Shown in pieces: positions 12,112-17,403 of a stretch of DNA of 64,000 nt. The notes beneath the pieces are model-generated. The model worked only from the letters and a program-made list of their open reading frames with translations. It had not been told where the DNA came from and did not search any database. Position 1 is the stretch's first letter. Each line of letters opens with the position of its first letter. The stretch spans positions 1,054,001-1,118,000 of the forward strand of contig OZ025793.1 in assembly GCA_964019425.1 (NCBI GenBank), read 5' to 3'. Origin of the DNA: Flectonema sp. DT1601 (taxonomy: Eukaryota). The position numbers and the translations under genes are program-made.

Positions 12112-15100
12112 ATGATACCAATCGAATCTTTGGAAGAAAAATTACGAAAAGGTGATTGTGATGAGTTGAAGCCGATACTACAAAATGGGATAAAAGAGAG
12201 AATATTCAGAGAAGCGATTAAGAACGTGTACTTTACTGAATCTACTGAGAGTGGCTATGATATAAAACAACTACTACACATCGTAGTGAAGATACAATCA
12301 CCACAGCTAATTGAACTCATATTAGATAAGGCGGATGAGGAGGTGATTGACGAAACCACCTTGCTCCTGGCTGTTGAATATAATAATCACCTCGAACTCA
12401 TACTAAATAAACTATCCGACGATAAAAAATCACTCATAAAGGATACAATTTCAAGCATAGTTGAAAAAGAGATGAGTGCTGACGATCAGTTGATATTATT
12501 ATTTAAATATGTCACTTGGGAACATTTCAAACTAATTATACGAAAACAGAGAAACAATAAAGAAATAGCAGCATGGTCACTACTAGTGGCTAGAAGTGGT
12601 AACAATTCTTTAATGAATAACTGGCTTCAGAGTGATGTACCACCTGACTTAACAATCACCACCAAAGCTAACAAGTCAAATGTCTTACATGAAGCTTGTT
12701 CGTCAGGGTCAGATGAAATGGTAGAGTTGCTACTCAAGAAAATGGAAAAAGAACAAATAATTTCATTAAACTCGGAGGGGAAAACTCCGCTTCTAAATGC
12801 ATCAAAAAGTGGGATCGGTCATTTTACATTACATCAACTGTTCAGGTCATACAATTCTAATATCAAAAAATTTAAAAAGCTTGTCGAAGATAAAAATATC
12901 TCCTTGTATAATGATAATAAAAAACTGTTTGAGATGTCAGGTAAAAATTCAGAAATTTCAATATGGGTTTCTAATCACCGTTCTAAATCGTCATCCCCTG
13001 ACGTGTGCCAAGAAATAAAGAAATCGGAGAGTGACCCTTGTATGACTGCAGACACTACGTCTCATAATATTCCTTATGACAGTAAACCCACCGCGTTGGT
13101 CTCTTCGTGCTTTGATCAGAATGAACCAGACTGTAAATTATTTGAATGGAAAAAACTTAACGGAAGGGATCGTTACCAAAGTTTCATCAACACGCTATTG
13201 CTAGCAACAGTACGTTTATGGAATAAAATCAATTCATATGAACCAAAAGCACACGAAGATATCAACTCATACAAAGAGGCGTATCCTAATGAAGGTACAA
13301 ACCCAGCTAACCTCGCAGCATTATTTGGAAGTACTCCAGAAGATGCCTTGGAGATGTTTTTAGCTGTGTGGTGCTACACAACTGCTAGCTTTTACGAAGC
13401 ATCAGGCATAAGAAGAACCATGACAAATATTGCAGCAGGCGATGCAAGTGAAGAAGACCAACGCAGGTCAAGGTTTTTGCATCCTGTCATTTATCATTTG
13501 CGACAACTATTGCTTCGACTCCCTCGAGAGGATGGTGTCCGACGTAGAGGTGATAAGGCAGCGAAGTCAGAGAAGTATAATGCCGAAAGGTCGATAAGTT
13601 TTCCCTACTTCGTATCTACTTCGTCTAGCGTTGATATTGTTATGAATACATTCATGGAGGGATCGTATCGCGATGCTTGTTACGTTATCGTTATTGGATG
13701 TGGTGCTGACGTGGCACATTTCTCTAGCAATGAGAAAACAGAGAAGGAGGTCTTGTTTTGTCCTGATTTTAAGTTTACAGTACTGAAAAAGTGGAATTCT
13801 AGCTTGCTTAGACACTTTGGATGCACTCACGACGTGGTAGTTATTGTTCAAGATACTCCCCGAGAAAGAAAAGAAGAAATGGAACACATTCGAATAGCAC
13901 TCTCAGATATGATGCAATTCTTATTCTATAACTTTAAAAGTAGATATGTAGAACCTCGATTATGCAAGAATTTGAAAGAAATATCATTGGATGATCTTAT
14001 CAAGGGGTTGCAAAATGAAAAAGATATCCAACCAGTTGTGATACAGTCAGATGCTGGTGAGGGAAAAACAGCGGCTGTCATCGCTATTGCGAACAGACTT
14101 TTTACGAAAGGATACTTTTGTTTGTTTGTATCCATGGCAGCAATAGAAAATGCATTCGACAAACACGTCATTGATGATTACATAAATGAAAAATGTCTAA
14201 CTGATAAATGTACTGCAGAGCACCTAGTGAAACAATACAAACTTGTCGTAATCCTCGATTCCTTAGACGAGGGAACTGCTATTCCCGAATCAAGCGAAAT
14301 GCTGACCCTCCGTCAACTTAATCCAGACTACCTCGGAAACTCCAAAACTCAAATAATAATAACTTGTAGAACTGAATACTTGTCTCAGAGGCATCTCACA
14401 CCGAAGAGTCTTCTTGGTGATAATGCTGTGTCTTATCGCTTACTTCCTTTTAACGATGACCAAAAAGATGAATTTGAGAAGAAGATGGTGCGTGAGGCTA
14501 TTAAATTGGAGGACCCTTCACCGGATACTATATTGAATCATGATCCTTGTAAGGCTGTAAAAGAAACTGTGAACAGTTTACGAAGAAGAGGACTTTGGAA
14601 TGTTTTGTGCAATCCACAAGTATTATATATGGCAATTAAGGCTGGTACTACGTATAACAATACTTCCGATATATACGAGAACTATATTAACTACTACGTA
14701 GGCTCTCAATTAGACGAAGCCGAACGTGACGCGAAAAGAAAAGAAGAATCTAAAAGTGACGTACTTAAAAAAGAAGTATCTAAAAATGAAAAAGAGATAG
14801 CTGAGGATAAAGAAATAGCTAGGCGTAAAGACGTTTCGAGGATAAAGAACTCCATGATCCATTTAGCTATAAGAATGCTGAAGATGAATCGATGGGAAGG
14901 AGCGCTGTCGAATTACTTTAAAGATGAAGACAACTTACGGGAAGTTGTGAAGAGTGACTTAAAATATTCTCCAGTATTCTACGAAGAAGACGTAGTTCGA
15001 TTTCAGCATAAGACGCTGCCCGAATATTTAGTTGCGAGTTACATTGCCGGAAGCTCACCAGTCACTGATGGCATAGCCAACCTCCCTCTTTTGAAGGAGG

Positions 15101-17403: not shown

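What the first reader, a model, noticed from the sequence alone, without database searches (positions are those of the whole stretch)
12112..17403. NLR-like receptor with an intact toxin-type ADP-ribosyltransferase as N-terminal effector
Seen: the R (13546), STS (13615) and ExE (EKE, 13741) triad of arginine-specific ARTs is intact. It lies immediately upstream of a NACHT domain with GKT and LDSLDE, followed by an ASNAFSLL-pentapeptide linker and WD40 repeats. Known: effector-NACHT-WD40 is the architecture of fungal HET-E-like and bacterial NLR-like proteins, and the NACHT-pentapeptide-WD40 subtype occurs in bacteria, ciliates and Mortierellaceae. Inference: ligand binding to the WD40 repeats oligomerises the protein and switches on ADP-ribosylation or NAD+ depletion. 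The extra N-terminal ankyrins may be an integrated sensor or a substrate adaptor.
Basis: partly seen in the sequence, partly recalled or inferred. Interest (0 to 1): 0.82.

Follow-up and report, generated by a model that had tools for sequence, protein, structure and literature searches.

The report
ADP-ribosylating NLR-like receptors of Euglenozoa
This intact gene joins an ADP-ribosyltransferase domain, with its catalytic residues present, to an NLR-type NACHT switch and WD40 repeats; dozens of relatives share that core, every named one is a euglenozoan protist, and it likely works as a sensor-triggered defence or cell-death enzyme.

Summary
Observation confirmed. The 1763-aa ORF reads ankyrin–ART–NACHT–pentapeptide–WD40. 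Pfam misses the ART in this protein, but a family profile hits Vis (E 1.3e-11). A confident model (pLDDT 90) matches R-S-E ARTs (Z 14.4 Vis, 14.2 Tre1, 14.1 ART2.2), with R479, S502 and E546 on the expected strands.

It is not a one-off. 88 of the 150 best hits carry ART directly before NACHT, 84 of them with the triad. All 13 named members of 24 looked up are Euglenozoa (diplonemids, a kinetoplastid, Euglena). ART and NACHT trees agree, while sensors (WD40, TPR, LRR) and N-terminal add-ons vary. In the two bacterial NACHT loci found (one with pentapeptide and WD40), a restriction-endonuclease-type domain fills the same slot.

Best reading: a STAND-gated, probably arginine-directed ART receptor. 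Activity, oligomerisation, ligand and immune role are untested. This copy is atypical: no ARTT aromatic residue, no N-x-x-x-R motif, degenerate WD40s. Ten literature searches found no description, but a key review and supplements were unseen. New variant of a known kind.

The parts
12112..17403 (+). Whole ORF, 1763 aa (P0001), uninterrupted, in a same-strand eukaryotic gene cluster; no signal peptide or clear membrane segment
   Evidence: hydropathy
12586..12843 (+). Ankyrin repeats (aa 159-244); further degenerate helical repeats upstream are inferred
   Evidence: Pfam Ank_2 48.1 bits; shared with P0002, P0003, P0007
13309..13857 (+). R-S-E class ADP-ribosyltransferase domain (aa 400-582)
13411..13425 (+). 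Helix position of the family N-x-x-x-R motif; here R-R-T-M-T (motif lost, basic residue one turn earlier)
13546..13548 (+). R479, strand-1 arginine of the triad
   Evidence: 86 of 88 relatives; on a model strand
13615..13623 (+). S502-T-S504 (STS motif)
   Evidence: S502 in 84 of 88
13726..13749 (+). ARTT loop ending in E544-K-E546; catalytic E546; the usual aromatic position is E541
13864..13962 (+). Long helix and YVEP motif linking ART to NACHT
   Evidence: model helix H192-217; alignment
14032..14493 (+). NACHT NTPase: Walker A SDAGEGKT (14047-14070), Walker B VVILDSLDE (14245-14271), T-C-R sensor
14494..15066 (+). Inferred helical and winged-helix part of the STAND module, with the F-x-H motif (H966, 15007-15009)
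   Evidence: equivalence to NLRC4 H443 inferred from the motif
15286..15486 (+). ASNAFSLL helix and short pentapeptide repeat
15514..17331 (+). Degenerate WD40 beta-propeller region (about 600 aa), the predicted sensor

Best explanation
The protein is a member of a euglenozoan family with a fixed ART-NACHT core between variable ends, and it likely works as an NLR-like receptor: the WD40 region would sense a ligand, the NACHT module would switch on and probably oligomerise, and the ART would then transfer ADP-ribose from NAD+, most likely to an arginine of a cellular protein, as a defence or cell-death signal. Shown: domain order, ART fold, triad, NACHT motifs, family size, joint descent of ART and NACHT, and swapped sensors. 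Inferred from STAND biology: gating, oligomerisation and a defence role. Inferred from the E-x-E loop: arginine as the target. The ankyrins are probably a subclade-specific adaptor for a target or a location.
For: Fold: pLDDT 90, pTM 0.82; Foldseek Tre1 E 8.7e-9; VIA Z 14.4, rmsd 3.8, 169 aligned to Vis. Triad R+S+E in 84 of 88 fusions; ARTT sixth residue E in 78 and Q in 7. Walker A GK[ST] in 85 of 88; D[GAS]hDE-type Walker B in most, DSLDE in 54. Catalytic E to Walker A spacing has median 115 aa, 106 here. ART and NACHT trees share 11 supported splits with 0 conflicts; distance correlation 0.64 against a best permutation of 0.18. In 47 close pairs, median identity is ART 54%, NACHT 47%, C-terminus 33%, N-terminus 28% (pairs chosen on core identity and core columns trimmed, so biased). 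Sensor class changes at least 5 times on the tree, with TPR and LRR alternatives. 4 of 66 C-terminal regions carry internal repeats of 60% identity or more. Several metagenome copies are split across frames. Bacterial L021 and L022 carry a restriction-endonuclease-type domain in the same slot. Close relatives come from transcriptome assemblies.
Against: No activity, ligand, target or phenotype data. This copy lacks the ARTT aromatic residue (E541; aromatic in 57 of 88). Its subclade of 9 lacks the N-x-x-x-R motif found as N in 65 and R in 75 of the other 79. It has no Pfam ART hit, whereas 25 of the 37 aligned members do. The first Walker A position is S (2 of 88; G in 68). Its WD40 region has no internal repeat conservation (0.175, the shuffle level) and a full-length counterpart exists in Flectonema, which fits a stable signalling role as well as an arms race. 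Conservation counts are inflated because members were chosen with a profile containing the triad. An isolated TEP1 TeTIR effector is active without detectable oligomerisation (passage), so gating by oligomerisation is not guaranteed.
Confidence: 0.58

Rival explanations
1. The ART domain in this copy acts mainly as an NAD+ glycohydrolase, or modifies only itself, so the receptor would deplete NAD+ or regulate itself instead of modifying a specific target.
For: The substrate-recognition aromatic residue is lost in this copy (role from PMC7827354 passages). NAD+-depleting effectors occupy this slot in other STAND proteins: TIR, SIR2, TeTIR/NIR.
Against: E-x-E is kept in 78 of 88 and switches to Q-x-E in 7. 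That residue sets the acceptor, which suggests selection on transfer.
Confidence: 0.15
2. It is a STAND-regulated ART used in routine signalling (trafficking, life cycle, stress), not defence; this copy is a domesticated member.
For: Full-length counterpart in Flectonema with the same order of domains; degenerate WD40s without internal repeats. N-terminal add-ons in relatives are signalling or trafficking domains: RCC1, SAM, ANF receptor, FYVE with a phosphatase-family domain.
Against: The family shows many paralogues per species, sensor swaps, internally conserved repeats and frame-split copies, all typical of immune repertoires.
Confidence: 0.17
3. In this copy the ART is weakened or inactive and serves as an NAD-binding or decoy domain, although most family members are active.
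For: Two accessory motifs are lost and there is no Pfam hit. Degenerate members exist: P0042, P0099, P0106, and P0046 has largely lost the domain.
Against: R479, G480, S502, S504, S539, E544 and E546 are all kept. A basic residue at 434 in 5 of 9 subclade members may replace the lost arginine. Identity to the Flectonema counterpart is as high in ART (63 of 180) as elsewhere.
Confidence: 0.08
4. It is an exported toxin used against prey or competitors.
For: The top fold matches are mostly bacterial toxins and effectors.
Against: No signal peptide or membrane segment (N-terminal hydropathy maximum -0.32); 1763-aa cytosolic STAND layout; no delivery domain seen.
Confidence: 0.02

Closest known systems
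Bacterial NLR-related NACHT proteins (bNACHT; Kibby et al., bioRxiv 10.1101/2022.07.19.500537)
   Same: Effector-NACHT-repeat layout, D[GAS]hDE Walker B, pentapeptide and beta-propeller sensors; L021 has the same NACHT-pentapeptide-WD40 backbone.
   Different: The effector lists read (sections 6 and 12) name nucleases, TIR, SIR2, PNPase, peptidases, kinases and others, but no ART; supplementary Table S1 was not seen. Here the host is eukaryotic and the effector stays fixed while the sensors vary.
Fungal HNWD / HET-E-like NLRs
   Same: NACHT-WD40 receptor with an N-terminal enzyme domain; some relatives have internally conserved 42-aa-period repeats.
   Different: ART instead of HET. This copy has no conserved internal repeats. 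A survey of fungal NLR effectors has 0 occurrences of 'ribosyl' in its main text (PMC9815663).
TEP1/NWD1/NWD2 TeTIR (NIR, DUF4062)-NACHT-WD40/TPR NADases
   Same: NAD+-using enzyme invariably just upstream of NACHT, WD40 or TPR sensors, optional N-terminal extension.
   Different: TIR-like hydrolase there, R-S-E transferase fold here; mainly animal against euglenozoan distribution.
R-S-E (ARTC) mono-ARTs: Vis, Tre1, ART2.2, HopU1, ExoS/T, XopAI
   Same: Fold (Z 12.8-14.4), R-S-E triad, E-x-E loop.
   Different: Those are secreted toxins, effectors or ecto-enzymes. This one is embedded in a cytosolic STAND protein, is only 14-22% identical to them, and lacks the ARTT aromatic residue.

Membership tests
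R-S-E (ARTC) ADP-ribosyltransferase | ART fold (split beta-sheet with helical lobe) | tested here: met
   AF2 pLDDT 90; Foldseek E 8.7e-9; VIA Z 14.4, rmsd 3.8, 169 aligned
R-S-E (ARTC) ADP-ribosyltransferase | Arg on strand 1, S-T-S on strand 2, Glu at the start of strand 5 | tested here: met
   R479, S502 and E546 lie on model strands 78-87, 107-110 and 152-155; 84 of 88 relatives. A residue-level superposition with Vis was not seen.
R-S-E (ARTC) ADP-ribosyltransferase | ARTT loop sixth residue E/Q (E in arginine-modifying enzymes) | tested here: met
   E544; rule from PMC7827354 passages
R-S-E (ARTC) ADP-ribosyltransferase | Aromatic residue at the third ARTT position (common, not universal: the SdeA and SidE loops quoted lack it) | tested here: not met
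   E541 here; aromatic in 57 of 88 relatives
R-S-E (ARTC) ADP-ribosyltransferase | N-x-x-x-R helix contacting NAD phosphates (role recalled; accessory motif) | tested here: not met
   R434...T438 here; N in 65 and R in 75 of 79 outside the subclade
R-S-E (ARTC) ADP-ribosyltransferase | NAD+-dependent transfer activity | not testable with these tools
   needs an assay
NACHT-clade STAND NTPase | Walker A GxxxxGK[ST] | tested here: met
   SDAGEGKT; GKT intact, first position S is unusual (2 of 88)
NACHT-clade STAND NTPase | Walker B D[GAS]hDE signature | tested here: met
   DSLDE; definition; Pfam NACHT above its cut-off
NACHT-clade STAND NTPase | Winged-helix histidine equivalent to NLRC4 H443 | tested here: inconclusive
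   FQHKT (H966) present; motif matched in 55 of 88, some of the misses truncated; not aligned structurally to NLRC4
NLR-like STAND receptor | Effector-NTPase-repeat three-part layout | tested here: met
NLR-like STAND receptor | Ligand-triggered oligomerisation that activates the effector, in defence or cell death | not testable with these tools
   needs biochemistry and genetics
Fungal HNWD (HET-E-like) | N-terminal HET domain | tested here: not met
   ART fold in that slot; no HET hit
Fungal HNWD (HET-E-like) | Highly conserved internal WD40 repeats (recalled) | tested here: not met
   0.175 best internal identity, equal to shuffles; no DNA repeats; met in a few relatives such as P0048 and P0076
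TeTIR/NIR-NACHT (TEP1-like) | TIR-like domain before NACHT | tested here: not met
   the domain has an ART fold
Recent bacterial transfer | Nesting within a bacterial clade of ART-NACHT proteins | tested here: inconclusive
   No ART-NACHT fusion in the GTDB pattern scans or in 401 genomes of one bacterial phylum. The tree is unrooted, with 2 bacterial rows. One origin is not rejected, p-AU 0.452, group chosen after seeing the tree.
Secreted ART toxin or ecto-ART | Signal peptide, GPI anchor or delivery domain | tested here: not met
   simple hydropathy scan only; Pfam

The most novel reading that the evidence does not exclude
Free-living Euglenozoa have their own expanded NLR repertoire, probably older than the split of euglenids, diplonemids and kinetoplastids, that signals by regulated arginine ADP-ribosylation. 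This would be a new NLR effector chemistry, in which a toxin-class enzyme is turned on the cell's own proteins, and a first molecular handle on innate immunity in this abundant protist lineage.
Probability: 0.42. Interest if true: 0.86.

Novelty: new variant of a known kind. Interest (0 to 1): 0.7.

Why it matters
The NAD+-using NLR/STAND effectors in the papers read are hydrolases or signal makers (TIR, SIR2, TeTIR/NIR, PNPase). An R-S-E transferase in that slot would add a new output: covalent modification of a chosen host protein. How single-celled predators such as diplonemids and free-living kinetoplastids sense symbionts, viruses or prey effectors is largely open (own knowledge). A family of at least 88 clusters below 50% identity, with swapped sensors and one member in Euglena gracilis, makes this testable with simple enzyme assays and knockouts.

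Tried and rejected
1. Single-sequence searches missed the ART: Pfam, PDB sequences, word-index search of aa 350-600 (self only), single-sequence AF2 (pLDDT 38). These reflect divergence, not absence.
2. The 'longer' homologue search covered only 2465-5000 aa and gave 2 unhelpful hits.
3. Complex prediction of two ART-NACHT copies gave no verdict (score 0.00, alignment not used). It is no evidence either way.
4. No RNA holder was listed. Run X1 covers only 11500-14270, and about half of that run was read.
5. Plasmid tblastn: no match. Viral scan: 1 locus, NACHT-pentapeptide without ART. PADLOC and NCBIfam: only weak or WD40-driven hits. The PF01129 genome search rang nowhere, controls included, so it is uninformative.
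6. The self-BLAST repeat test returned zeros for every protein (method failure) and was redone.
7. A functional link to the downstream PARP gene was considered: no PARP was found among 21 neighbour ORFs of related loci, so it is treated as incidental.
8. AACRNL (PMC12957317, abstract and word counts) was rejected as an analogue: diphtheria-type ART, no NACHT.
9. No whole genome is held, so paralogues in this organism could not be counted. P0003 lies on a contig of the same length (345,763), so it is probably a paralogue.
10. Rows dropped: P0135 and P0102 (fragments) were left out of the NACHT tree. Alignment A3 used 36 of the relatives, chosen for shorter length.

Full report
Setting. The window is eukaryotic: eIF5, Vps26, PIP5K, FYVE and kinase genes. 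Its long ORFs are uninterrupted and 24 of the 25 listed lie on the + strand, as in euglenozoan gene clusters (own knowledge). The closest named relatives of the protein come from Flectonema neradi and Diplonema ambulator, so the host is probably a diplonemid (inference). No whole genome is held.

Observation. Pfam finds ankyrin, NACHT, pentapeptide and WD40 domains but no ART. The bare triad pattern is weak: 345 of 5000 shuffles match a loose version and 9 of 5000 a strict one.

ART identity. Three relatives found through the NACHT region share R479, G480, S502, S504, E544 and E546. Two show Pfam ART hits at E 1.3e-4 and 1.9e-3 and the third has PF01129 precomputed. An HMM built without this protein scores it 109 bits against 5.8 for the best of 500 shuffles. 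The four-sequence profile hits Vis (1.3e-11), ART2.2, SpvB, ExoT, Tre1, XopAI and HopU1, all within profile positions 53-167. With a 37-row alignment AF2 gives pLDDT 90 and pTM 0.82, and R479, S502 and E546 fall on three strands. Foldseek ranks Tre1 and Vis first. The independent wide search gives Z 14.4 (Vis; rmsd 3.8, 169 aligned), 14.2 (Tre1) and 14.1 (ART2.2); its top 20 rows are all ART-fold proteins. The fold is therefore established computationally. By the ARTT rule (PMC7827354, passages), E544 points to arginine as the acceptor.

Deviations in this copy. The third ARTT position is E541, whereas 57 of 88 relatives have an aromatic residue there. The N-x-x-x-R motif (N in 65, R in 75 of the 79 outside its subclade) is absent from its 9-member subclade, where 5 carry R or K at 434, possibly compensating. 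The first Walker A residue is S (2 of 88) (all). The WD40 region has no internal repeat conservation.

Family. The ART-to-pentapeptide profile against 1.84 billion representatives gave 36,259 hits at E 0.001, of which only the best 150 were seen. 88 of these 150, the four seeds included, have ART directly before NACHT. R, S and E are all present in 84 of 88; Walker A GK[ST] in 85. These counts lean upward because the profile contains the triad.

Taxonomic range. Of 24 members looked up, 13 carry species names: Flectonema 3, Diplonema 1, Namystynia 4, Artemidia 1, Apiculatamorpha 3, Euglena gracilis 1. The other 11 are unnamed ENA records, this protein included. Namystynia, Apiculatamorpha and Euglena belong to Diplonemea, Kinetoplastea and Euglenida; the placement of Flectonema, Diplonema and Artemidia among diplonemids is recalled. 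A metagenome scan gave 19 loci, several near-duplicates, all with an ART hit (one weak). 5 of 21 neighbour ORFs had Pfam hits, among them the spliceosomal PRP3, which points to eukaryotic hosts. L010, L014, L015, L017 and L019 are split across frames (pseudogenes or assembly errors). No bacterial fusion turned up: none with one alignment, two NACHT-only loci with another, and no match spanning both domains in 401 genomes of one phylum. These tests have low power, and fusions scoring below the top 150 are not excluded.

Evolutionary pattern. ART and NACHT trees share 11 of their 25 and 18 supported splits, with no conflict. One origin of the ART-bearing NACHTs is not rejected (p-AU 0.452), but the tree is unrooted and gene transfer is unresolved. 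The ends vary. 45 of 88 have the pentapeptide linker and 34 share one WD40 cluster. Among 31 proteins scanned, mostly from outside that cluster, 3 have TPR, 3 LRR, 3 propellers and 1 PDZ; upstream, 3 have RCC1, 1 SAM and 1 an ANF-receptor domain. L003 has FYVE plus a phosphatase-family domain. Sensor class changes at least 5 times on supported branches, and ART is the most conserved part in 47 close pairs (54%, against 47% NACHT, 33% C-terminus and 28% N-terminus; biased as noted). 4 of 66 C-terminal regions have internal repeats of 60% identity or more, up to 100% in P0048. Ankyrins were detected only in this protein's near relatives (with an HMM built from three of them). The bacterial loci L021 and L022 carry a ParA-like and a restriction-endonuclease-type domain before NACHT, and L021 continues with pentapeptide and WD40, so the ART sits in a recognised effector slot.

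Mechanism. Shown: anatomy, fold, motifs and a linked history of ART and NACHT under strong conservation. Inferred: the resting NACHT keeps the ART off; sensor engagement drives nucleotide exchange and probably oligomerisation; the ART then modifies a host arginine; the outcome is defence signalling or cell death (0.58). Rivals: NADase or self-modification (0.15), non-immune signalling (0.17), weakened or decoy domain in this copy (0.08), exported toxin (0.02).

Literature. Ten searches (listings and abstract starts) showed no paper on ART-NACHT receptors or euglenozoan NLRs. Kibby et al. bioRxiv 10.1101/2022.07.19.500537: passages and sections 6, 10 and 12 read; ART is not among the listed effectors; supplements not seen. 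PMC9815663: passages, 0 hits for 'ribosyl'; supplements not seen. TeTIR and NIR preprints: passages. PMC8195603, PMC7955679, PMC12881547, PMC7827354: passages. PMC9503650: word counts only. PMC12957317: abstract and word counts. The Aravind 2015 ART review was not held and may mention such fusions. One earlier unchecked note of this scan (e1-7216601) reached a similar reading from another genome; it is not independent support.

Verdict. A real and well-supported architecture: a new effector variant of NLR-like STAND proteins, expanded across Euglenozoa. Function is predicted, not shown. Interest 0.70.

Noticed in passing
window 17679-19403 (+): The next gene encodes cysteine-rich zinc-finger-like repeats, an unannotated middle domain (aa ~140-380; no Atlas hit; not similar to the ART family) and a PARP12/14/15-like catalytic domain (E 2e-24). 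Two different ART classes sit side by side; no conserved linkage was seen.
   Followed up: partly
window 49461-61339: About 12 kb without an ORF of 150 aa or more, T-rich (AT skew about -0.2, GC 0.34) inside a dense gene cluster; no tRNA or Rfam hit.
   Followed up: partly
window 1390-7095 (+): 1901-aa ORF with no Pfam hit and a 147-bp tandem repeat of 2.8 copies at 3627-4018.
   Followed up: no
window 33276-36202 (+): Two tandem protein-kinase genes; a 165-aa ORF overlaps the end of the second.
   Followed up: no
window 45579-49460 (+): Receptor-type cyclase with a phosphate-binding-protein-like (PBP_like_2) domain.
   Followed up: no
protein P0002 (Flectonema), aa ~625-795: A degenerate duplicate of the NACHT core, without Walker motifs, lies between the ART and the intact NACHT.
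   Followed up: partly
L021:1848-6962 and L022:2231-5581: Bacterial proteins with ParA-like, restriction-endonuclease-type and NACHT domains, in L021 followed by pentapeptide and WD40.
   Followed up: partly
L026 (G357:C1:387705-388808): Two adjacent stand-alone bacterial ART-like ORFs of 253 and 262 aa that match the family's ART profile.
   Followed up: partly
proteins P0085, P0105, P0156: Proteins with 3 to 7 tandem ART-like domains and no NACHT.
   Followed up: no
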